27,297 nucleotides of DNA, from NCBI GenBank assembly GCA_031259905.1, contig JAIRKS010000058.1:1-27297 (forward strand), written 5' to 3'. Position numbers and translations under genes: made by a program. The stretch is from Odoribacteraceae bacterium (GTDB taxonomy: Bacteria > Bacteroidota > Bacteroidia > Bacteroidales > Marinifilaceae). Under the pieces are notes generated by a model. That model was not told the DNA's origin. It did not search any database and saw only the letters and a list, made by a program, of their open reading frames with translations. Of the stretch, positions 693 through 27,000 are shown one piece after another; the stretch's first letter is position 1; each line of letters opens with the position of its first letter.

Positions 693-923
693 TTTCTACT
701 TCCCCTCTTTCTCTTTCTACTTCAACCGATCACTTTTCTCCTTCGACCGGTCGCTTTTTTACTTAAACAATTCATCCTTTTCGTTCGACCGGTCACTTTT
801 TTACTTAAACAATCTATCCTTCGAGTTCGACCGATTCTCTTTCTACTTCAACCGGTTTCTTTTCGTCTGCAAAGGTATGGTTATTTCGTTCGACATTCCA
901 AATATTTCAACCGATATTTTTTT
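693..923. repeat. Degenerate 21-bp tandem array 1a (pyrimidine-rich on +), 11 in-phase units with the last three heavily decayed
   Basis: Units start at 693, 714, 735, 756, 777, 798, 819 and 840, for example TTTCTACTTCAACCGATCACT, TTTCTCCTTCGACCGGTCGCT and TTTTTACTTAAACAATTCATC. They translate on + as heptads FLLQPIT/FLLRPVA/FLLKQFI. Confidence 0.85.
870..902 (-). promoter_or_regulatory. Bacteroidota primary-sigma promoter (TTTG-N21-TAnnTTTG) pointing at the 1-636 gene
   Basis: Minus strand reads TTTG (902-899), a 21-nt spacer, then TACCTTTG (877-870) followed by CA. This is an exact match to the established Bacteroides -33/-7 consensus TTTG-N19-21-TAnnTTTG. Confidence 0.75.
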
Positions 924-1028
924 CCGGGAGCTCCCAAAATAATTTCGGGAGCTCCCAATTTTATTTTGGGAGCTCCCAAAATCATTTTGGGAGCTCCCAA
1001 TCTTATTTTGGGAGCTCCCAAAATTTTT
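924..1028. repeat. Array 1b: five tandem 21-bp palindromic units (core GGGAGCTCCC)
   Basis: Units start at 924, 945, 966, 987 and 1008. ATTTTGGGAGCTCCCAAAAT (963-982 and 1005-1024) is a perfect 20-bp palindrome. Confidence 0.95.
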
Positions 1029-1039
1029 TGTGGAATACA

Positions 1040-1123
1040 AAAAGAGGGTGGGAGTAATAGAAATCTCCAATGCTGAACGAGAAAAGAGGATGGGAGTAAT
1101 AGAAATCCCCGGTGGTGAACGAG
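1040..1123. repeat. Array 1c: two 42-bp direct repeats
   Basis: AAAAGAGGGTGGGAGTAATAGAAATCTCCAATGCTGAACGAG (1040-1081) versus AAAAGAGGATGGGAGTAATAGAAATCCCCGGTGGTGAACGAG (1082-1123). Confidence 0.9.
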
Positions 1124-1161
1124 AAAAGAAAGAGGGGAGGGTAGTCCGGTGAAAGGCAGGG

Positions 1162-10926: not shown

Positions 10927-12285
10927 ATGATGAAGCTGGTTATTCTTGGAGGCGGGGAGAGCGGCATCGGCGCGGCGCGACTGGGATCGCGGTTGGGCCA
11001 CGCGGTATTCTTGTCGGACAGCGGGCCGCTGACCGGGGGCGCCCGCCACGCGCTGGAAGAGATGCAGGTGGAGTTCGAGGAGGGGGGGCACGACGCGAGG
11101 CGGGTCATGCAGGCGGACCTGGTCGTGAAAAGCCCTGGAATTCCCGACACCCTCCCGCTGGTCGTCTCCCTCCGGGCGGCGGGCGTGGAGGTGATCTCGG
11201 AAATAGAGTTCGCCGGTCGCCACACGGACGCGGCGATGTACTGCATCACGGGGAGTAACGGGAAAACCACCACCACCTTATTATTATACCACCTGCTCCG
11301 GCGCGGCGGACTGGACGTCGGCCTGGCGGGGAACGTCGGGCACAGCCTGGCCGCGCGCGTGGCGACAGACCCTCACGCGGCCTACGTGGTAGAGCTTTCC
11401 AGCTTCCAGCTGGACGGGATGTCCCGTTTCCATTGCGACACGGCCATCTTGACGAACATCACGCCGGACCACCTCGATCGCTACGGCGGGCGGTTCGAGA
11501 GATACGTCGACTCCAAGTTCCGGGTACTCCAGAACGCCCGCCCGCGCGATCTTTTCATCTACGGCACGGATTGCGACGCGGTACGCGAGCGGGTGTCCCG
11601 GACGCGGATCGTCCCCCGCGCGGCGCGCTTCACGTGTCACGACGATCCCGGCCAGGACGCGTGGATGTCGGGCGATCGCCTGCTGGCGCGTCACGAGGGT
11701 CGTCTCTTCTCGATCGACCGGCGGGAGATCTCGATACAGGGTCGCCACAACATGTACAACGCCCAGGCGGCCGTACTGGCGGCGATGAAGGCGGGCGTGG
11801 GGGACGACGACCTGCGGCGCGGCCTGGCGACCTTCCCCCCGGTGGAGCATCGCCTGGAGCGGGTGGCGGTCGTGAACGGCGTCACGTACATCAACGATTC
11901 GAAGGCGACCAACGTCGATTCCGCCCTGTACGCCCTGGAGAGCGTCCCCCCGCCGGTGATCTGGATCGCCGGGGGCACCGACAAGGGGAACGACTACGCG
12001 GCGTTGAAGGCGCTGGCGCGGGAAAAGGTAAAGCTGCTCGTCTGCATGGGAGTGGACAACGCCCGCCTGTCGCGCGAGTTTTCCGGCACGACCGAGGTCG
12101 TCGACACGCGCGGGCTGGACGAGGCGATGGCCGTCGTCGCGGCGCGCGTCGTGCCCGGGGACACGGTGCTCCTCTCCCCGTGCTGCGCGAGCTTCGACCT
12201 CTTCAGGAACTACGAGGATCGCGGGCGGCAATTCAAGGAAAAAGTAATGAATCTAACGCGACAGGATAATGGAAGAGATCATTAA
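10927..12285 (+). CDS. murD: UDP-N-acetylmuramoyl-L-alanine:D-glutamate ligase MurD
   Basis: LGGGESG, VKSPGI, ITGSNGKTTT, ELSSFQL, NITPDHLDRY, NDSKATN and LLSPCCASFDLF. Confidence 0.97.
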   Translation: MMKLVILGGGESGIGAARLGSRLGHAVFLSDSGPLTGGARHALEEMQVEFEEGGHDARRVMQADLVVKSPGIPDTLPLVVSLRAAGVEVISEIEFAGRHTDAAMYCITGSNGKTTTTLLLYHLLRRGGLDVGLAGNVGHSLAARVATDPHAAYVVELSSFQLDGMSRFHCDTAILTNITPDHLDRYGGRFERYVDSKFRVLQNARPRDLFIYGTDCDAVRERVSRTRIVPRAARFTCHDDPGQDAWMSGDRLLARHEGRLFSIDRREISIQGRHNMYNAQAAVLAAMKAGVGDDDLRRGLATFPPVEHRLERVAVVNGVTYINDSKATNVDSALYALESVPPPVIWIAGGTDKGNDYAALKALAREKVKLLVCMGVDNARLSREFSGTTEVVDTRGLDEAMAVVAARVVPGDTVLLSPCCASFDLFRNYEDRGRQFKEKVMNLTRQDNGRDH

Positions 12286-13951
12286 CCGGGCAAAATACTA
12301 CCTCGTCCCGAAGGGTGACAAGATCCTCTGGGTGATGATCCTCGCGTTGATGCTGATCTCGCTGGTCGCGGTCTTCTCGTCCACCGGGAAGCTCGCCTAC
12401 GTCAGCATGGAGGGGGACACGACGCGCCCGTTGTTCAAGCAAGCCGGGCTATTCGTCGCGGCCCTTGGCGTGATGCTCTTCGTTCAATCGATGCACTACA
12501 AGTACTTCATCTCGCTGGCCACGCCCGCGTGCTGGCTGGCGCTGCTGTTGCTGGCGTTGGCGCTCGTGATCTCGCTCCTCGACAATTCGGCGCGTGTCAA
12601 CGATACGGCCCGCTGGATAAAAATCCCCATCCTCGGCAGCATCCAGCCGTCGGAGGTTGCCAAGCTGGGGCTCGTGATGTACATGGCGCGGGTGCTCGCG
12701 TTCGAGCAACTGTCCGATCGCTGTTCCAACCGCGTGCTGTTCAAGATAGCGTTAATCTTCCTTCCCCCGTGGATACTGATCTTCAATGAAAACGCCTCGA
12801 CGTCCGTGCTCCTGGCGCTGGTCTGCGCGGTGATGCTATTCGTCGGGCGCTTGCACTGGAAACCGCTGCTGCTGACGTACGCCGTCGCCGCGGCGCTCGC
12901 CACTGTCTTCCTGGTGACGATCATGAACACCGACAAGCTCGACCACATCGCGCGCGTGGTCACCATCAAGGAGCGGTTGAACAACAAGAACCCCTTCCAG
13001 GCTAACCAGGCCAAGATTGCCATCGCGCGCGGCGGCCTCCACGGCGTCGGGCCGGGGCGCAGCGTGCAGCGGAATTTCCTGCCGAACCCGCAGTCGGATT
13101 ACATCTACGCGATCATCGTCGAGGAGTACGGGCTGCTCGTCGGCGGCATACCGGTGCTGCTCATCTACGCGATCATCCTGTACCGCGTCGGCACGATCGC
13201 CCGGCGATGCACGCGGGCGTTCCCGGCGCTACTCGTGACGGGGCTGGGGATCACGATTTTTCTCCAGGCGATCATACACGTGTGCGTGTGTACCGGCGTT
13301 TTCCCCGTGACCGGCCAGCCCTTGCCGCTGGTGAGCACCGGCGGCACGTCCATCCTCCTCCTCGGCGTCGCCTTCGGGATGATCCAAAGCGTCGCGCACA
13401 CCTTCTCGGACGCCGGGCAACAGGAGGAACGCGAACGACAGGCACGACGAAAAGCCGCCAGGAGAAGGGAAATCGAACGACTGGAACGAGAGGAGGACGA
13501 CGAAACGCTATATTTTCAGCGGCTTTCCCTGAATTTTGAGCGCCCTTTACAAACTTTGAAATGCCTTGTACAAAGTTTGAAATGCCCTTTACAAAGTTTG
13601 AAATGCCCTTTACAAAGTTTGAAATGCCTTGTACAAACTTTGAAATGCCTTGTTCAAATTTCTAGATGCCTTGTCAGAAATTTGAAATGCCCTTTACAAA
13701 GTTTGAAATGCCTTGTACAAACTTTGAAATGCCCTTTACAAACTTTGAAATGCCTTGTACAAACTTTGAAATGCCCCTGTACAAAGTTTGAAATGCCCTT
13801 TACAAAGTTTGAAATGCCTTGTACAAACTTTGAAATGCCCTGTACAAAGTGTGAAATGCCCTGTACAAAGTTTGAAATATCCCCCCGTGTCGCCCGTTTG
13901 GCGGCGCGTGAATGGCCGTGGCGCCTGACCCTTTTACCCTTTAACGCGTGA
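12269..13951 (+). CDS. ftsW: Peptidoglycan glycosyltransferase FtsW (SEDS family) with an in-frame repeat-derived C-terminal extension
   Basis: ARWIKIP, IQPSEVAK, FQANQAKIAIARGG, LPNPQSDYIYAII and GQPLPLVSTGGTS. The membrane core ends near 13400, but there is no in-frame stop until TGA at 13949-13951. Confidence 0.93.
   Translation: MEEIINRAKYYLVPKGDKILWVMILALMLISLVAVFSSTGKLAYVSMEGDTTRPLFKQAGLFVAALGVMLFVQSMHYKYFISLATPACWLALLLLALALVISLLDNSARVNDTARWIKIPILGSIQPSEVAKLGLVMYMARVLAFEQLSDRCSNRVLFKIALIFLPPWILIFNENASTSVLLALVCAVMLFVGRLHWKPLLLTYAVAAALATVFLVTIMNTDKLDHIARVVTIKERLNNKNPFQANQAKIAIARGGLHGVGPGRSVQRNFLPNPQSDYIYAIIVEEYGLLVGGIPVLLIYAIILYRVGTIARRCTRAFPALLVTGLGITIFLQAIIHVCVCTGVFPVTGQPLPLVSTGGTSILLLGVAFGMIQSVAHTFSDAGQQEERERQARRKAARRREIERLEREEDDETLYFQRLSLNFERPLQTLKCLVQSLKCPLQSLKCPLQSLKCLVQTLKCLVQISRCLVRNLKCPLQSLKCLVQTLKCPLQTLKCLVQTLKCPCTKFEMPFTKFEMPCTNFEMPCTKCEMPCTKFEISPRVARLAAREWPWRLTLLPFNA
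13534..13878. repeat. Array 2: 16 tandem 21-bp units, consensus TTTGAAATGCC(T/C)T(G/T)TACAAA(G/C)
   Basis: Units start at 13534 (degenerate), 13555, 13576 and so on to 13850, with a partial unit at 13871. The unit at 13765-13786 is 22 bp. Units contain TTGTACAA and CAAA-S-TTTG dyads. Confidence 0.97.
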
Positions 13952-13955
13952 AAAC

Positions 13956-15059
13956 ATGAAAAAGATAATCATCAGTGGCGGCGGTACCGGCGGGCACGTC
14001 TTCCCGGCCATCGCGATCGCCAACGCGCTGGAACGATCCGGGCAGGACGTGGAGATCCTGTTCGTCGGCGCGGAAGGACGACTGGAAATGGAGAAGGTCC
14101 CCGCGGCAGGTTACCGCGTGATCGGCCTGCCGGTGCGGGGTTTCCGTCGCCGGTTAACGTGGGAAAACGCGGCGGTCGTCGCGAGCCTCTACCGTAGCCT
14201 GCGCGCGGCGCGTCGCGTCGTGGACGACTTTCGCCCGGACGCGGTCGTGGGCGTCGGCGGGTACGCCAGCGGCCCGGTGGGCTGGGCGGCCACGCGGGCG
14301 GGCGTCCCCCTGGTGCTGCAAGAGCAGAACTCGCTCGCCGGCGTGACGAATCGCCTGCTGGCGCGCCGGGCGGCGAGGATCTGCGTGGCGTACGAGGGGA
14401 TGGAACGCTACTTCGGGAAAGAAAAAGTGATCCTCACCGGCAACCCCGTGCGCGAGGAATTGCCGCGGGCGATCCACGCGCGGGAAGAAGGCATCGCCTT
14501 CCACGGGCTGGACGCGCGACGGAAAACGGTGCTCGTCACCGGCGGAAGCCTCGGCGCCGCGAGCCTGAACCGGGCCGTGTCGAGGTGGCTGGAGCGATTC
14601 GCCGCGTGGGACGACGTGCAGGTGCTGTGGCAGTGCGGCAAGGGTTACAGCCAGGGGCTGGAACGGGCGTTGAGAGGGACGATCCCGCCGAACGTGATCC
14701 TGACGCCGTTCCTGGAACGCGTGGAGCTGGCGTACGCCTGTGCCGACGTCGTGGTGGCGCGGGCGGGCGCGTGCACGATCTCGGAGCTGACCCTGCTGGG
14801 AAAGGCCGCGGTGCTGGTGCCGTCGCCGAACGTCTCCGGGGACCACCAGACGAGGAACGCCCGCGCGCTGGTCGACAAGGGCGCCGCCATCCTGCTGGCC
14901 GACGGGGAAGTAGAGGCGCGGCTGGCCGACACGCTCGCCGCGCTGCTGGCCGATGACGGGAGACGACGCGACCTGTCGGAACGTGCCCGGGCGCTGGGAC
15001 GGCCGGACGCGAGCGAGCGGATCGCCGGGATAATTCTCTCCGTGACGAACAAAAATTGA
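13956..15059 (+). CDS. murG: N-acetylglucosaminyl transferase MurG
   Basis: IISGGGTGGHVFPA, VGVGGYASGP, LQEQNS, TGNPVR, GGSLGA, RAGACTISE and DHQTRNA. Confidence 0.98.
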   Translation: MKKIIISGGGTGGHVFPAIAIANALERSGQDVEILFVGAEGRLEMEKVPAAGYRVIGLPVRGFRRRLTWENAAVVASLYRSLRAARRVVDDFRPDAVVGVGGYASGPVGWAATRAGVPLVLQEQNSLAGVTNRLLARRAARICVAYEGMERYFGKEKVILTGNPVREELPRAIHAREEGIAFHGLDARRKTVLVTGGSLGAASLNRAVSRWLERFAAWDDVQVLWQCGKGYSQGLERALRGTIPPNVILTPFLERVELAYACADVVVARAGACTISELTLLGKAAVLVPSPNVSGDHQTRNARALVDKGAAILLADGEVEARLADTLAALLADDGRRRDLSERARALGRPDASERIAGIILSVTNKN

Positions 15060-18358: not shown

Positions 18359-19636
18359 ATGATCGATAGATTGATACATATAAACGCTCCCGTGCAGAAA
18401 GCGCCCGGCATTAAGGTATTGGGCGTGGGCGGGGGCGGTTGCAATGCCGTGAACTACATGTATTACCAGGGAATACAGAACGTGGACTTCATGGTATGTG
18501 ACACGGATTTACAAAAACTGCGTCAAAGCCCGGTGCAGAACCGGGTGCAGATCGGGAAAGACTCGACCGGGGGACTCGGGGCGGGAAGTAACCCGGAGCA
18601 AGGAAAGACGTCAGCCAACGAGACCCTCGACTACCTCCGTTCCGTGCTGGAGAACAATACTAAAATGCTCTTCATCGCGGCCGGGATGGGAGGAGGAACA
18701 GGCACGGGGGCTGCTCCCGTCATCGCCGATTTATCAAGGAGTTTAGGTATACTGACCGTCGCCATCGTGACGATTCCCTTCAATTTCGAGGGGAAACGGC
18801 GCGTGGAACAGGCGTTAAAGGGAATCGAGGAGCTGGATAAACACGTCGACTCCCTGTTGATCATCTGTAACGAGAAGTTACTGAAAATACACGACAACCT
18901 GAAATTGTCCCAGGCTTTCAAGAAAGCCGACGACGTGTTGGCGGTCGCCGCCAGGAGTATCGCGGAGATTATCACCATAAGAGGGTTTGTCAATATCGAC
19001 ATGAAAGACGTGAAGTCAGTGATGAACAATAGCGGGGTAGCCCTCATGGGTGCCGGTGACGCGTCCGGTCCGGATCGGGCAATGGAGGCGGTGAAAAAGG
19101 CCCTGGACTCCCCGCTGTTGAACAGTAGCGATATCCGGGGAGCTTCCGAGGTCTTGTTAAACATCTTGTACGGGGAAGAGGAAGTGACGCCCCAGGAGGG
19201 AGAATCAATAAAAGCCTACCTGAAAGAACTGGTAGGGGGCGACGTGGATTTTAACTGGGGATCGGGAAAGGACGATACGCTGGAAGATAAATTACGAGTG
19301 GTAGTGATCGTCACGAGATTTAAGCAGAGGGCCTTGGAATCACCCTATTCTGCCCCGGTCTTCAAGGTCGAGGAGGTCGAGGAGGAGGAAGAGCTGCGGC
19401 TGATGGTGGAGGATGCCCGACAGCTGGAAGAAAAGAAACGGCAGCAATATAAAACGAGACAAGAGCAACAGCAACGTAAGGAGCAAAAGGAAACACTTCC
19501 ACGCGAGAAACAGAAGCAAGGGAAAAACACCCCCCCCGACCAGGATGGTTGGCTCCAACGAACATTTGGACATATTTTTAACACAGACGCGAATCTGGCA
19601 AGAGACACGGATATATCAAAGGAATCTGGATCATGA
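18359..19636 (+). CDS. ftsZ: Cell division protein FtsZ, first copy
   Basis: IKVLGVGGGGCNAV, GLGAGSNP, GMGGGTGTGAAP, PFNFEGKRR and T7 loop NIDMKDV. Confidence 0.93.
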   Translation: MIDRLIHINAPVQKAPGIKVLGVGGGGCNAVNYMYYQGIQNVDFMVCDTDLQKLRQSPVQNRVQIGKDSTGGLGAGSNPEQGKTSANETLDYLRSVLENNTKMLFIAAGMGGGTGTGAAPVIADLSRSLGILTVAIVTIPFNFEGKRRVEQALKGIEELDKHVDSLLIICNEKLLKIHDNLKLSQAFKKADDVLAVAARSIAEIITIRGFVNIDMKDVKSVMNNSGVALMGAGDASGPDRAMEAVKKALDSPLLNSSDIRGASEVLLNILYGEEEVTPQEGESIKAYLKELVGGDVDFNWGSGKDDTLEDKLRVVVIVTRFKQRALESPYSAPVFKVEEVEEEEELRLMVEDARQLEEKKRQQYKTRQEQQQRKEQKETLPREKQKQGKNTPPDQDGWLQRTFGHIFNTDANLARDTDISKESGS

Positions 19637-20826
19637 AAGATAGATTGATTAATTTTATCCAAGACGAGACTTCCCCGGTCATCATTAAGGTGATTGGCGT
19701 GGGTGGAGGTGGCGGCAATGCCGTGGCGTACATGTCGGAAGAGGGGATACATGACGTGGATTTCGTGGCGTGTAACACGGATAGCCAGGCGCTCCAGGGA
19801 CTTCCTGATATTGTCAAATGCATACAACTGGGCCAGAGCTTGACGGGGGGAGAGGGCGCCGGCAACAATCCCGAAAGGGGCGAGGCCGCTGCTCTCGAGA
19901 GTTTAGAGGAAATAGAATCCATGTTGCGGGAGAATACCAAGATGGCTTTCATCACGGCGACGATGGGCGGGGGGACCGGGACAGGCGCCGCCCCCGTGAT
20001 CGCCAAGGCGGCCAAGGAGATGAATATCCTCACCGTGGGCGTGGTAACCTTCCCCATGCGCTCGGATGGCCCGAAGCGGGTCAAACAAGCACACGAGGGG
20101 ATCAAGCGGATGCAGGAGCACGTGGACGCGCTGCTCGTCATTGATAACGAGAAAATCTGTAGCTTGTACGGGTCGAGAACGCAGACCGACGCCTTTAACA
20201 AGGCCAACGACGTGTTAAAGGTCGCGGTGAAAGGCATCGCCGAGATCATCACCTTGCCGGGGTACATCAACGTGGATTTCTCCGACGTGAAGACGGTGCT
20301 GACCAATAGTCGCATGGCCATCATGGGAGCGGCCAAGGCATCGGGCAAGGGCCGGGCGGAACGGGTGATCGCGGAAGCGCTGAATAGCCCGCTGCTCAAT
20401 ATAAGCGACCTGTCGGATGCCAACGACATCTTGTTGAGCATCTCTTCGGGCATTGACGATAACGAGATTTCGGTACCCGAGTTGATAACGATCACCTCTT
20501 ACATGACTGACCGGGTGGGGGATGTTTCGGTAATCTGGGGTGTCGGTATGGACGAGACGTTGGGAGAAGATCTCTCCGTGACGATCATCGCCACGGGCTT
20601 CCCCTTCACGGAGGTGGACGACGCGCCGGTGAATATTCCCGGGATGGATTCCGGGACAGCACGGGAAGAGACGTACCAGAACAACGATAGCGTGATCGAT
20701 TACGCCGGCATGATATTGAAGAAACCGGACGTGTCCTTGCAACCTGATCTTACTGTCGAGGAAATACGCGAGTTGAAGATGACGCCGGCCTATACCCGGC
20801 GAAGAATAAAAGTGAATAAGATTTAG
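19633..20826 (+). CDS. ftsZ: Cell division protein FtsZ, second copy
   Basis: IKVIGVGGGGGNAV, CNTDSQAL, TMGGGTGTGAAP, T7 loop NVDFSDV and C-terminal PAYTRR. It has an ATGA overlap with copy 1. Confidence 0.93.
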   Translation: MKDRLINFIQDETSPVIIKVIGVGGGGGNAVAYMSEEGIHDVDFVACNTDSQALQGLPDIVKCIQLGQSLTGGEGAGNNPERGEAAALESLEEIESMLRENTKMAFITATMGGGTGTGAAPVIAKAAKEMNILTVGVVTFPMRSDGPKRVKQAHEGIKRMQEHVDALLVIDNEKICSLYGSRTQTDAFNKANDVLKVAVKGIAEIITLPGYINVDFSDVKTVLTNSRMAIMGAAKASGKGRAERVIAEALNSPLLNISDLSDANDILLSISSGIDDNEISVPELITITSYMTDRVGDVSVIWGVGMDETLGEDLSVTIIATGFPFTEVDDAPVNIPGMDSGTAREETYQNNDSVIDYAGMILKKPDVSLQPDLTVEEIRELKMTPAYTRRRIKVNKI

Positions 20827-20876: not shown

Positions 20877-22811
20877 ATGGAAAGATTTAGAGAATTAGGT
20901 TTAGACGGGGAGATTCTTCAAGGGATCGCGGATTTGGGCTTTGAAACACCGACTCCTGTACAAGAGAAGACAATTCCCGTGATTTTGGGCGAAACAAACG
21001 ACCTGGTCGTTCTGGCTCAAACGGGAACGGGAAAGACGGCCGCCTTCGGGCTACCGTTACTGCAAAAGATCGACGCGGGGAATAAAGACACCCAGGTGTT
21101 GATCTTAAGCCCCACGCGGGAATTGTGCGTGCAGATCGGGAATGATCTGAAGAATTACTCGAAGCACAGGAAAGACATCAGCGTCACCTGCGTGTACGGG
21201 GGCACCGATATCCGGAAACAGATACGGGAAGTACAACGCGGGGTACACATCATCGTGGCAACGCCGGGGCGGCTGGTTGATTTACTGGAACGCGGGGTAG
21301 TACACATCGGGACGATATTCGCCGTGGTGCTGGACGAGGCCGACGAGATGTTGAACATGGGTTTCCAGGAGGAATTAAATTCCATCCTCGAGGCCACGCC
21401 AAAAGAGAAAAACACCTACCTCTTCTCGGCAACAATGCCGAAAGAGGTGGAGAGAATCGCCAAAAACTACCTGGTGAACCCCGTGGAAATCGCCGTCGGG
21501 AAGAAAAACCAGGGGGCAGACACGGTCTCGCACCACTACTACATGGTGCGTGCCAAGGACTGTTACGAGACACTGCGCCGGGTCGTCGACTGTGCACCGG
21601 ACATGTACGCTATCATCTTTACCCGCACGAAGAATGACGCGAGCGATATTGCCAAGCATTTGCAGAAAGACGGTATCGACTGCGACGCCCTGCACGGCGA
21701 CCTGAGCCAGGCGCAACGGGACAACGTGATGGCCGCCTTCCGCTCCAAGCGCTTAAAAGTTCTCGTGGCCACCGACGTCGCGGCCAGGGGACTGGACGTG
21801 GATTGCCTGACGCACGTCATCAACTACAACCTGCCTGACGACGTGGAGAGCTATACCCACCGCAGTGGACGCACCGGACGCGCGGGGAAGGAAGGAATCT
21901 CCATCGCGATCATTCACTCCCGCGAGAAGGGCAAGTTACGCCGCATCGAGGGGATGTTGAAAAAACAATTCATCTACCAGGAAGTGCCCGATGGCGACAG
22001 TATCTGCCGGGCGCAGCTCGCCTTCTACGCCGACAAGATCTTGAACTCCGAGATGCAGGAAGAGTTGGAGCGCTATGACCAGGGGGTTTTCGAGAAATTC
22101 GAGGCATTGAGCAAGGAAGAATTAATACAGCATTTAGTCTCCTACGAGTTCGGTAAACTCTTGAAGAAATACAAGGACACGGAAGACCTGAACTTATCGG
22201 CCGGGGAACGGGGCGAGCGAGGTGAACGAGGAGAACGAGGTGAACGAGGCGGACGAGGTGAACGAGGCGGACGGGGAGAACGCGGCGATCGTGGTGATCG
22301 TGGTGATCGCGGCGAGCGAGGCGAACGCGGTGATCGTGGCGATCGTGGTGATCGTGGCGATCGCGGCGATCGTGGTGATCGCGGCAGGGAGATCTTCTTC
22401 AGTGCCTTCTCGATGAATGTCGGGCGAGAGGACGGGATGACCCCCCGCGACTTGATGGCCTTGATTAACCAGAATTCCCGTCACCGCAACGTGGAGGTGG
22501 GCGGCATACAGATATACGATACCGACACCCGCTTCGAGATCGACGAGAGTAGCGCTCATGATTTCTTCGTGGACTTCAAGCGGGTATTCTTTAACGGCAT
22601 ACCGGTGACGCTCGTTCCCTTCTCCGGTCGGGTCGAGAGCGGCGCTCGCGGCCGGGATCGCCGCGGTGGTCGCGCGCCTGCCTTCTCCAGCAGGTCCGGG
22701 TACGACCGCCGGGGCAGGTACAGCCGGCGGCGCGAGGAAGAAACCCCTGGGAAACGTCGCGGGAAACCGGGAAGCAACCCCAAAAAACCCAGGAACTTTA
22801 GCAGATCCTGA
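20877..22811 (+). CDS. DEAD-box RNA helicase with a DbpA/CsdA-type RNA-binding domain
   Basis: Q motif GFETPTPVQ, AQTGTGKT, DEAD, SAT, ARGLD and HRSGRTGRAG, followed by an RBD-like segment (MNVGREDGMTPRDL) and a basic tail. Confidence 0.95.
   Translation: MERFRELGLDGEILQGIADLGFETPTPVQEKTIPVILGETNDLVVLAQTGTGKTAAFGLPLLQKIDAGNKDTQVLILSPTRELCVQIGNDLKNYSKHRKDISVTCVYGGTDIRKQIREVQRGVHIIVATPGRLVDLLERGVVHIGTIFAVVLDEADEMLNMGFQEELNSILEATPKEKNTYLFSATMPKEVERIAKNYLVNPVEIAVGKKNQGADTVSHHYYMVRAKDCYETLRRVVDCAPDMYAIIFTRTKNDASDIAKHLQKDGIDCDALHGDLSQAQRDNVMAAFRSKRLKVLVATDVAARGLDVDCLTHVINYNLPDDVESYTHRSGRTGRAGKEGISIAIIHSREKGKLRRIEGMLKKQFIYQEVPDGDSICRAQLAFYADKILNSEMQEELERYDQGVFEKFEALSKEELIQHLVSYEFGKLLKKYKDTEDLNLSAGERGERGERGERGERGGRGERGGRGERGDRGDRGDRGERGERGDRGDRGDRGDRGDRGDRGREIFFSAFSMNVGREDGMTPRDLMALINQNSRHRNVEVGGIQIYDTDTRFEIDESSAHDFFVDFKRVFFNGIPVTLVPFSGRVESGARGRDRRGGRAPAFSSRSGYDRRGRYSRRREEETPGKRRGKPGSNPKKPRNFSRS
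22209..22388 (+). repeat. Coding 9-bp repeat: 20 consecutive RG-x tripeptides in the helicase
   Basis: Codon-by-codon reading from 22209: RGE x4, RGG, RGE, RGG, RGE, RGD x3, RGE x2, RGD x6, RGR. Confidence 0.95.
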
Positions 22812-26754: not shown

Positions 26755-26964
26755 GTGTACCACCGCCTCGCCATCATGTCCCACCGCCCCGCCACCATGT
26801 ACCACCGCCCCGCCACCATGTTCCATCGCCCCGCCACCATGTTCCACTGCCCCGCCATCATGTACCACCGCCCCGCCACCATGTTCCACCACCCCGCCAT
26901 CATGTACCACCACCCCGCCATCATGTACCACCGCCCCGCCACCATGTTCCATCGTCCCGCCATC
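26755..26964. repeat. Array 3: ten tandem 21-bp C-rich units, consensus ATGT(A/T)CCACCGCCCCGCCA(C/T)C
   Basis: Units start at 26755, 26776, 26797 and so on to 26944, all exactly 21 bp. The array lies between the convergent dacB and kinase genes. Confidence 0.97.
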
Positions 26965-27000
26965 ATGTTTTTCCGGGGTGGTGGGGACGTGCCGTGTCGT

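What the first reader, a model, noticed from the sequence alone, without database searches (positions are those of the whole stretch)
13400..13951. FtsW reads through array 2 and gains a Cys/Leu heptad tail
Seen: there is no stop between the FtsW membrane core and 13949, giving 560 aa. The tail has a charged segment, eleven (P/L)(L/V)Q(T/S)LKC-type heptads and then TKFEMPC-type heptads, with 16 Cys in total. Across the first 11 units the FtsW frame is the only + frame that stays open: one other frame has TGA in most units, and the third has TAG at 13663-13665. The final TGA lies 4 nt before the murG ATG, like a native operon junction. Established: FtsW is an essential SEDS polymerase with a cytoplasmic C-terminus. 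Inference: either a repeat array is tolerated or co-opted in an essential division protein, or the ancestral stop was lost (TAT at 13511-13513 is one base from TAA/TAG).
Basis: partly seen in the sequence, partly recalled or inferred. Interest (0 to 1): 0.7.

Follow-up and report, generated by a model that had tools for sequence, protein, structure and literature searches.

The report
FtsW tail from non-coding repeat array
In this termite-gut Odoribacteraceae genome, one of about 240 non-coding 21-base satellite arrays sits exactly where the cell-division gene ftsW used to stop, so ftsW is predicted to gain a 146-residue tail that shows no sign of being a selected protein domain; it is a curiosity, though related species hint that the frame is kept open up to the next gene, murG.

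Summary
The ORF 12269-13951 encodes 560 aa. A 16-unit 21-bp array lies at 13542-13878, and a 22-nt unit switches the heptad type. The tail has 16 Cys, and the TGA stop lies 4 nt before the murG ATG.

The tail does not look like a co-opted domain. Its GC3 is 0.29, against 0.89 in the FtsW core. The same unit family forms at least 9 other arrays in this MAG. All are intergenic and upstream of unrelated housekeeping genes, and the 'LKC' reading phase is stop-free in all of them. The MAG holds 243 arrays of this period class, the known 'constant repeat size, variable sequence' 20-23-nt class.

Relatives end FtsW at about 398-414 aa, 3-9 nt before murG in two of them. Tyr415 (TAT 13511) is conserved, so it is not a mutated stop. 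The array module starts four codons later, where the ancestral stop lay.

Two other related lineages also carry inserts at this junction: a sister lineage with a 290-nt non-repetitive spacer, and another with a local 23-nt array. Each insert is open only in the ftsW frame, as far as murG. This hints at selection for uninterrupted translation rather than for the peptide.

The interior of the array is not independently verified. The scan had already noted the 21-bp arrays of this window.

The parts
12269..13951 (+). ftsW open reading frame as assembled (560 codons plus TGA)
12323..13402 (+). SEDS/FtsW membrane core (Pfam PF01098, residues 19-378); GC3 0.89, codon log-odds +0.51
13403..13526 (+). 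Native charged cytoplasmic C-terminus (…QQEERERQARRKAARRREIERLEREEDDETLYFQRL). It aligns with the ends of the 414-aa FtsW of relatives. Tyr415 = TAT 13511-13513.
13527..13541 (+). Degenerate left-edge unit of the array module (TCCCTGAATTTTGAG…). Similar left edges occur at paralogous arrays on C59, C11 and C209. It occupies the position of the ancestral stop.
13542..13878 (+). 21-bp tandem array, 16 units, consensus GCCCTGTACAAAGTTTGAAAT, GC about 0.34. It is read as 11 LKC-type and then 5 FEMP-type heptads.
13647..13688 (+). Pair of variant units (…TTCAAATTTCTAGAT / GCCTTGTCAGAAATTTGAAAT) carrying TAG 13663-13665 in the FEMP phase. The same pair occurs in the paralogous array on contig C158.
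13773..13794 (+). 22-nt unit (GCCCCTGTACAAAGTTTGAAAT) that shifts the ftsW frame from the LKC phase to the FEMP phase. C158 has an equivalent 22-nt unit.
13879..13948 (+). Non-repetitive segment after the array, read as …ISPRVARLAAREWPWRLTLLPFNA. Its last ~30 nt are homologous to the stretch upstream of murG in the sister lineage P0008. It has no TAnnTT[TC]G promoter box and no terminator.
13949..13951 (+). TGA stop of the extended ftsW frame, 4 nt before murG
13956..15059 (+). murG (Glyco_transf_28 N- and C-terminal domains)

Best explanation
The tail is a by-product of a non-coding satellite array landing on the ftsW stop codon.

The genome is packed with tandem arrays of fixed 20-23-nt period (and doubles of it) and variable sequence. 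One family, with the unit …TTTGAAATGCC…, normally sits 75-175 nt upstream of genes. A copy of that module lies immediately upstream of murG. In the ancestor ftsW stopped only 3-9 nt before the murG ATG, so the insert replaced the stop.

The ftsW frame enters the array in the one phase that is stop-free in every copy of the family. A 22-nt unit moves it into the second open phase, and it ends at the first in-frame stop, 4 nt before murG.

If the assembly is right, FtsW carries 146 extra cytoplasmic residues. These are tolerated because the C-terminal tail of FtsW is a variable, dispensable-looking appendage in this family.

Shown: the anatomy, the family context, the non-coding composition, and the position of the ancestral end.

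Inferred: that the tail is translated and harmless. Whether the open frame is merely lucky or is kept open by selection so that ribosomes reach murG is unresolved; I put selection at roughly 35-40%.
For: Repeat class in this genome:
- The MAG has 243 arrays of period 20-23, 41-43 or 63 nt in 1.87 Mb. Of these, 230 are intergenic, and the ftsW array is the only true satellite array inside an ORF. The other 'inside' cases are short, are weak gene calls, or, where checked (contig C207), are properly codon-adapted.

The unit family of the ftsW array:
- The same family occurs at 9 or more other loci. All are intergenic and upstream of unrelated genes: era, ftsX, RNase R, nadA, an aaRS, a tRNA, fecR and others.
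- Seven of the 9 have a TAnnTT[TC]G box between the array and the ATG, where 0.04 would be expected.
- The LKC phase has no stop in any paralog.

Composition:
- Array GC is 0.34 against about 0.65 in the flanks.
- GC3 is 0.29 and codon log-odds -1.05 in the ftsW frame, against 0.89 and +0.51 in the core.

Relatives:
- FtsW is 398-414 aa in G001, G002 and P0007, with the stop 3-9 nt before murG in two of them. The Tyr aligned with TAT 13511 is conserved.
- FtsW length ranges from 389 to 532 aa across the family, and one genus has natural tails of 474-532 aa.

Assembly:
- The left junction is reproduced without a stop in a related strain from another study, and the right junction in the source run.
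Against: - There is no expression or peptide evidence, so translation of the tail is inferred from the absence of a stop only.
- The interior of the array comes from a short-read MAG and is not bridged by independent contigs. It shares long identical stretches with the C158 array, so unit order, unit number and the +1 unit could be mis-assembled.
- A purely neutral reading has to accept three lineages whose unrelated inserts are each open only in the ftsW frame.
- AlphaFold (single sequence) predicts the LKC heptads as long helices with pLDDT 74-88. A structured tail cannot be excluded.
Confidence: 0.78

Rival explanations
1. The open frame is maintained by selection, not luck. This refines the best explanation rather than replacing it. 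In this tightly coupled dcw operon, an insert between ftsW and murG would be tolerated only if ribosomes translate through it up to the murG start. That would preserve translational coupling and protect the transcript from polarity on murG-murC-ftsQAZ. Selection would then act on the absence of stops, not on the peptide sequence.
For: - Three lineages have unrelated inserts at the same junction. In each, exactly one of the three frames is open, and it is the ftsW frame. The stop lies 4 nt (own) or 20 nt (P0008) before the murG ATG, or overlaps it as ATGA (G005, P0004).
- P0008 is sister to this genome (support 93/94) and shares about 30 nt of sequence upstream of murG. Its 103-codon spacer has no codon-position GC bias (0.48/0.50/0.50) yet has no stop. 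The shuffle p is 0.007, and the other two frames have 5 and 3 stops.
- In G005 and P0004 the 23-nt units would give an in-frame TGA in every third unit. Exactly those units are variants without TGA, and the two relatives differ by one 69-nt (3-unit, in-frame) block.
- All dcw junctions have gaps of -17 to +13 nt.
- The 77 nt before murG hold no promoter-like box and no terminator.
Against: - There are few lineages, and the own and P0008 inserts probably share one origin.
- For this genome alone the chance of openness is about 0.2: one entry phase in three, times 0.69 for the post-array segment.
- P0008's spacer may be a decayed array. Its inherited stop-free phase would make the shuffle null too strict.
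- Two relatives have untranslated spacers of 48 nt (G001) and about 100 nt (P0002) before murG, so coupling is not obligatory.
- Most arrays between co-directional genes elsewhere in the genome are not translated.
Confidence: 0.37
2. Assembly artefact. The array interior, including the 22-nt unit, was mis-assembled from reads of paralogous arrays. The real ftsW would then end in a different frame or earlier, or the true array would differ in length.
For: - 113 of the 243 arrays lie at contig ends, so arrays break this assembly.
- Logan contigs fragment between 13482 and 13852 into 49-68-nt pieces at a depth far above the flanks.
- The C158 array shares four or more identical consecutive units, the variant pair and a 22-nt unit with this array.
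Against: - Both junctions to unique sequence are reproduced independently. The left junction is open up to 13545 in a second strain.
- A 21-nt period keeps the frame whatever the copy number.
- Even without the +1 unit the frame would run through the whole array in the LKC phase and stop shortly after it, so a long tail would remain.
Confidence: 0.12
3. Co-opted functional tail. The Leu/Cys heptads would form a cytoplasmic coiled coil or a metal- or partner-binding module that modifies divisome assembly.
For: - The heptads have Leu at a/d-like spacing. AlphaFold (single sequence) gives long helices for residues about 4-123 of the 183-aa C-terminal piece, with pLDDT up to 88.
- Some bacteria do use FtsW C-tails for partner binding (own knowledge: mycobacterial FtsW-FtsZ).
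Against: - Codon usage and GC3 are those of non-coding DNA.
- The identical 'peptide' is encoded by 9 intergenic arrays.
- A frameshift inside the array changes the heptad type.
- The tails of the sister and cousin lineages are unrelated in sequence.
- No Pfam family matches the tail.
- The FEMP part and the post-array part are predicted disordered, with pLDDT about 35.
Confidence: 0.06

Closest known systems
'Constant repeat size, variable sequence' tandem repeats of bacteria, 20-23-nt class (Subirana & Messeguer; PMC8161180, which cites their 2020 survey of 1241 genomes)
   Same: There are many arrays per genome, the unit length is fixed near 21 nt (23 nt in G005), sequences are unrelated between arrays, families are species-specific, and the arrays are overwhelmingly non-coding.
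   Different: The density here is very high (243 arrays in 1.87 Mb), and one array is fused to the reading frame of an essential gene. What I read of that work does not mention arrays of this class being read as protein.
Rickettsia palindromic elements (RPE) inserted in frame into protein genes (own knowledge: Ogata et al., Science 2000)
   Same: A dispersed repetitive DNA element ends up inside an ORF of a housekeeping or essential gene. It is translated as a tolerated extra peptide without evident function.
   Different: RPEs are single palindromic elements of about 100-150 bp inserted inside genes. Here a tandem 21-bp array is appended at the 3' end by displacing the stop codon, and membership was not testable.
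Natural long C-terminal tails of FtsW (genus g4 of the same family, 474-532 aa; mycobacterial FtsW tail, own knowledge)
   Same: It is a cytoplasmic extension after the last transmembrane helix. This shows that the position tolerates 60-130 extra residues.
   Different: The g4 tails are acidic/Arg-rich low-complexity sequence found throughout that genus. The tail here is a repeat array with non-coding composition, found in this lineage only.
[quoted passage not shown]
   Same: Tandem DNA repeats with dyad symmetry that translate into amphipathic repeats and move within genomes.
   Different: PARCEL units are 25 residues (75 nt), are recognised by a protein HMM, and lie in ORFs as coding sequence. 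The 21-bp family here is intergenic at 9 of 10 loci.

Membership tests
FtsW (SEDS family) of the dcw cluster | Match to the FTSW_RODA_SPOVE profile over its full length | tested here: met
   PF01098, 211.9 bits, profile positions 3-353 of 356, residues 19-378
FtsW (SEDS family) of the dcw cluster | Gene position between murD and murG in the dcw operon | tested here: met
   murD 10927-12285, ftsW 12269-13951, murG 13956-15059, each with its Pfam domains
FtsW (SEDS family) of the dcw cluster | Essential periplasmic-loop Asp in the S-D-[FY]-I-[FY]-A motif (own knowledge of SEDS proteins) | tested here: met
   The translation contains …NPQSDYIYAIIVEEYG…. Catalytic activity itself is not testable here.
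Constant-size/variable-sequence 20-23-nt tandem repeats | Many arrays in one genome share the unit length | tested here: met
   After overlapping TRF rows were merged, 188 arrays have period 21, 10 have period 22, and 70 have period 42.
Constant-size/variable-sequence 20-23-nt tandem repeats | Unit sequences differ between arrays and families | tested here: met
   The consensus units listed are mostly unrelated. The three arrays in the window have unrelated units.
Constant-size/variable-sequence 20-23-nt tandem repeats | Non-coding location | tested here: met
   230 of 243 arrays are intergenic by my own gene calls. All 9 other copies of this unit family are intergenic.
Functional coiled-coil or Cys-rich protein domain | Conservation of the peptide in orthologues, and coding-type composition | tested here: not met
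   Tails of relatives are unrelated or absent. GC3 is 0.29 against 0.89 in the core. No Pfam family matches.
In-frame mobile repeat insertions (RPE-like) | A dispersed element family with copies both inside ORFs and between genes | tested here: inconclusive
   The family is dispersed, with 1 of 10 copies in an ORF. The mechanism of spread is unknown and there is no sequence relation to RPEs.

The most novel reading that the evidence does not exclude
In array-ridden termite-gut Odoribacteraceae, inserts between ftsW and murG persist only if the ftsW frame stays open right up to the murG start. The 'junk' tail would then be maintained by selection for uninterrupted translation (coupling or anti-polarity in an essential operon), which constrains stop codons but not peptide sequence. 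This would be a natural demonstration that ribosome transit, not the product, can be the selected trait of a coding extension in Bacteroidota.
Probability: 0.35. Interest if true: 0.55.

Novelty: new member of a known kind. Interest (0 to 1): 0.35.

Why it matters
The finding shows how the enigmatic fixed-period satellite arrays of some bacteria interact with genes. They can displace the stop codon of an essential division gene and add about 150 residues to FtsW without, apparently, killing the cell. For annotators it is a warning that the 560-aa 'FtsW' of such MAGs carries a non-coding repeat. For evolution it offers a small natural experiment: three related lineages with unrelated inserts at ftsW|murG, all open only in the ftsW frame. 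Whether translation through an operon junction is itself under selection in Bacteroidota can be tested with a few more genomes or one reporter construct.

Tried and rejected
- TAT 13511 as a mutated stop: rejected, because the Tyr is conserved in G002 and P0007.
No new junctions were gained.
- Rfam at gathering threshold over the whole window: no match.
- Sigma-70-type scan of 13300-14100: one weak promoter-like site that overlaps the murG start, and no terminator.
- Bacteroidetes-type TTTG-N17-23-TAnnTTTG: one site in the window, at 870-902 on the minus strand, and none near murG. There is no TAnnTT[TC]G box in 13879-13955.
- Expression: no RNA holder listed. Runs X3 and X4 laid nothing.
- Single-sequence AlphaFold of the last 183 residues: mean pLDDT 62.8. 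The helical heptads are expected for any LxxLxxx repeat, so the model does not discriminate and no fold search was made.
- Genome-wide test for a bias for or against read-through at gene 3' ends: 6 arrays supply an early stop and 2-3 are read through. This is not different from expectation, and the C207 cases proved to be ordinary coding repeats.
- Search of our earlier findings by words for similar read-through cases: nothing relevant.
- PARCELs considered and rejected as a family.
- The G005 23-nt unit is not dispersed in its own genome, where only one locus was found. That array is therefore local, unlike the one here.

Full report
**1. Observation**

The window carries a dcw cluster: rsmH, ftsL-like, ftsI, murE, mraY, murD, ftsW, murG, murC, ftsQ, ftsA and two ftsZ genes.

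- The ftsW frame runs from 12269 to a TGA at 13949-13951, which gives 560 codons. The Pfam FtsW/RodA/SpoVE profile covers residues 19-378 only.
- TRF reports a 21-bp array at 13542-13878, with 16 copies and 86% matches.
- GC falls from about 0.65 in the flanks to about 0.34 in the array.
The tail has 16 Cys. One frame has TGA in 10 of the first 11 units. The third frame has a single TAG at 13663. The stop lies 4 nt before the murG ATG at 13956.
- A 22-nt unit at 13773-13794 explains the change from (P/L)(L/V)Q(T/S)LKC heptads to TKFEMPC heptads.
- Over the whole array only one of six frames is open, and it is the ftsW frame.

**2. What the array is**

The window's genome is an Odoribacteraceae MAG from termite gut: 1.87 Mb, 235 contigs, about 65% complete.

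TRF over the whole genome gives 418 repeat clusters. Of these, 188 have period 21, 10 have period 22 and 70 have period 42. I kept 243 arrays of the 20-23, 41-43 and 63-nt classes. By a simple codon-usage gene finder trained on this genome, 230 are intergenic and 113 lie at contig ends.

[quoted passage not shown] That class has a size of 20-21 nt (20-23 nt in individual species) and no known function (PMC8161180).

The ftsW array is the only sizeable satellite array that lies inside a gene call. The other 'inside' cases are short, are weak gene calls, or, where I checked (contig C207), are ordinary coding repeats with GC3 of 1.0.

**3. The unit family**

The same unit (…TTTGAAATGCC…) forms arrays at 9 or more other loci, on contigs C158, C59, C11, C53, C5, C30, C184, C54 and C209.

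- All 9 are intergenic. In each, the neighbouring gene faces the array with its 5' end. In 8 of 9 the array has the same orientation towards that gene as the ftsW array has towards murG.
- The downstream genes are unrelated housekeeping genes: era, ftsX, an AIR-synthase-type gene behind a tRNA, a class II aaRS, RNase R, a GH2 gene, fecR and nadA.
- Seven of the 9 have a Bacteroidetes-type -7 box, TAnnTT[TC]G, between the array and the ATG. The expected number is 0.04 per 150 nt. The 77 nt before murG have none.
- Left and right edges of the arrays resemble each other between loci. C158 and C59 share about 60 nt beyond the array, so whole modules have been copied.
- Read in the orientation of the window, the 'LKC' phase has no stop in any of the non-coding copies. 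The 'FEMP' phase is open for the TGTACAAAG-type units. The third phase always has TGA.

The open frame is therefore an intrinsic property of the unit, not a sign of coding.

**4. Composition**

| Segment | GC3 (ftsW frame) | Codon log-odds per codon |
|---|---|---|
| FtsW core | 0.89 | +0.51 |
| Array, LKC part | 0.29 | -1.05 |
| Array, FEMP part | 0.35 | -0.62 |
| murG | 0.86 | +0.41 |

The tail is not codon-adapted.

**5. Where FtsW ended ancestrally**

- Same-genus relatives end at 398 aa (G001, 48-nt spacer) and 414 aa (G002, stop 9 nt before the murG ATG). The metagenomic relative P0007 ends at 414 aa, with its stop 3 nt before murG.
- Their ends (…EREAAEADYVEEM*, …HMAAESTYTDNI*) align with …EREEDDETLYFQRL in this genome. 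TAT 13511 is therefore a conserved Tyr, not a decayed stop. The ancestral stop lay about four codons later, near 13526.
- That is where the degenerate left-edge unit of the array module begins (TCCCTGAATTTTGAG…; compare the left edges on C59, C11 and C209).
- The module thus displaced the stop and the few bases before murG.
- Across the family, FtsW open frames range from 389 to 532 aa. One genus has natural tails of 474-532 aa, so extra C-terminal residues are tolerated.

**6. Other inserts at the same junction**

- G005 (protein P0003, 476 aa) and the closely related P0004 (453 aa) read through a 23-nt array and end in an ATGA overlap with murG.
  - With a 23-nt period the frame rotates through the unit. 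A standard unit would give TGA in every third unit, and exactly those units are variants without TGA.
  - The two relatives differ by one 69-nt block, which is three units and keeps the frame.
  - This unit occurs nowhere else in G005.
- P0008 (496 aa) groups as sister to this genome in an FtsW-core tree, with support 93/94.
  - It shares about 30 nt of sequence upstream of murG with this window.
  - Its spacer of about 290 nt is now non-repetitive by TRF. I saw by eye three similar short motifs that recur at 84- and 42-nt spacing; no tool tested this.
  - The spacer has no codon-position GC bias (0.48/0.50/0.50, against 0.48/0.39/0.74 in its core). Even so it has no stop in 103 codons, while the other two frames have 5 and 3 stops. 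The shuffle p is 0.007.
- In all four sequences exactly one of the three frames is open, and it is the ftsW frame.
- All dcw junctions in the window have gaps of -17 to +13 nt.
- Against a strict rule: P0002 has about 100 nt, and G001 48 nt, of untranslated spacer before murG.
- For this genome alone the chance of openness is about 0.2: one entry phase in three, times 0.69 for the post-array segment.
- G003's contig starts 4 nt before the murG ATG and its ftsW was not found. This fits another array there but proves nothing.

I rate selection for an open frame (translation through to murG) at about 35-40%.

**7. Reliability of the assembly**

- Logan contigs of the likely source run (X1) cover 12900-13482 and 13852-14400. 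Between those points they break into pieces of 49-68 nt at high depth.
- A second run from another study (X2) holds a strain about 95% identical. One of its contigs spans 13305-13545 with substitutions only, and none of the listed changes creates a stop.
- Both junctions are therefore supported, but the interior is not. The interior shares long identical stretches, the variant pair and a 22-nt unit with the C158 array.
- The 21-nt period keeps the frame at any copy number, so a long tail would remain under most alternative assemblies.

**8. Could the tail be functional?**

Single-sequence AlphaFold of the last 183 residues gives long helices over the charged segment and the LKC heptads, with pLDDT up to 88. 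The FEMP part and the end are predicted disordered, with pLDDT about 35. Mean pLDDT is 62.8. Any LxxLxxx repeat would be predicted this way.

Four observations argue against a functional tail. The same 'peptide' is encoded by nine intergenic arrays. The composition is non-coding. A frameshift lies inside the array. The tails of related lineages are unrelated. I rate co-option at about 6%.

**9. Verdict**

A non-coding satellite array of a known enigmatic class landed on the ftsW stop, just upstream of murG. The ftsW frame runs through it because the unit has stop-free phases, and the tail is tolerated. The one feature worth following up is that the frame stays open at this junction in three related lineages.

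Noticed in passing
whole genome G000 (e.g. window 714-1129, 13542-13878, 26756-26969): 243 tandem arrays of period 20-23, 41-43 or 63 nt in 1.87 Mb, about 130 per Mb. 113 of them lie at contig ends, so these arrays are the main cause of assembly breaks in this MAG.
   Followed up: partly
G000 contigs C158:13176-13623, C59:8940-9112, C11:4460-4674, C5:7816-8020, C53:14097-14325, C30:1-175, C54:1-370: Arrays of the TTTGAAATGCC family sit upstream of housekeeping genes, mostly in one orientation. In 7 of 9 a Bacteroidetes-type -7 box, TAnnTT[TC]G, lies between the array and the ATG. They may be promoter-upstream modules.
   Followed up: partly
G000 C158:13017-13175 and C59:8765-8939: The two arrays share about 60 nt of homologous sequence beyond the array (…GGTAAAAATGTAAAATGCCCTGCCGTGAATGGCGATGTCGCGGCA…). 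Array plus flank therefore seems to be copied as one module.
   Followed up: no
window 18359-19636 and 19633-20826: Two full-length ORFs in the ftsZ position, joined by a 4-nt overlap. Other notes of this scan report them as two ftsZ genes. Not examined here.
   Followed up: no
window 22206-22385, inside ORF 20877-22811: A 9-nt-period repeat (GAACGAGGC / GGCGATCGT, about 18 copies) inside a 644-codon ORF. It is probably a coding tripeptide repeat.
   Followed up: no
L145 (G003:C238) 1-30: The contig of this same-genus MAG begins 4 nt before the murG ATG, and ftsW was not found in that MAG. This would fit another unassembled array at the same junction.
   Followed up: partly
family-level search (e.g. 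L017 = G008:C2): All FtsW hits but one in genus g4 of the family have open frames of 474-532 aa. The G008 tail that I read is acidic and Arg-rich and overlaps murG, so it looks like a natural long FtsW C-tail.
   Followed up: no
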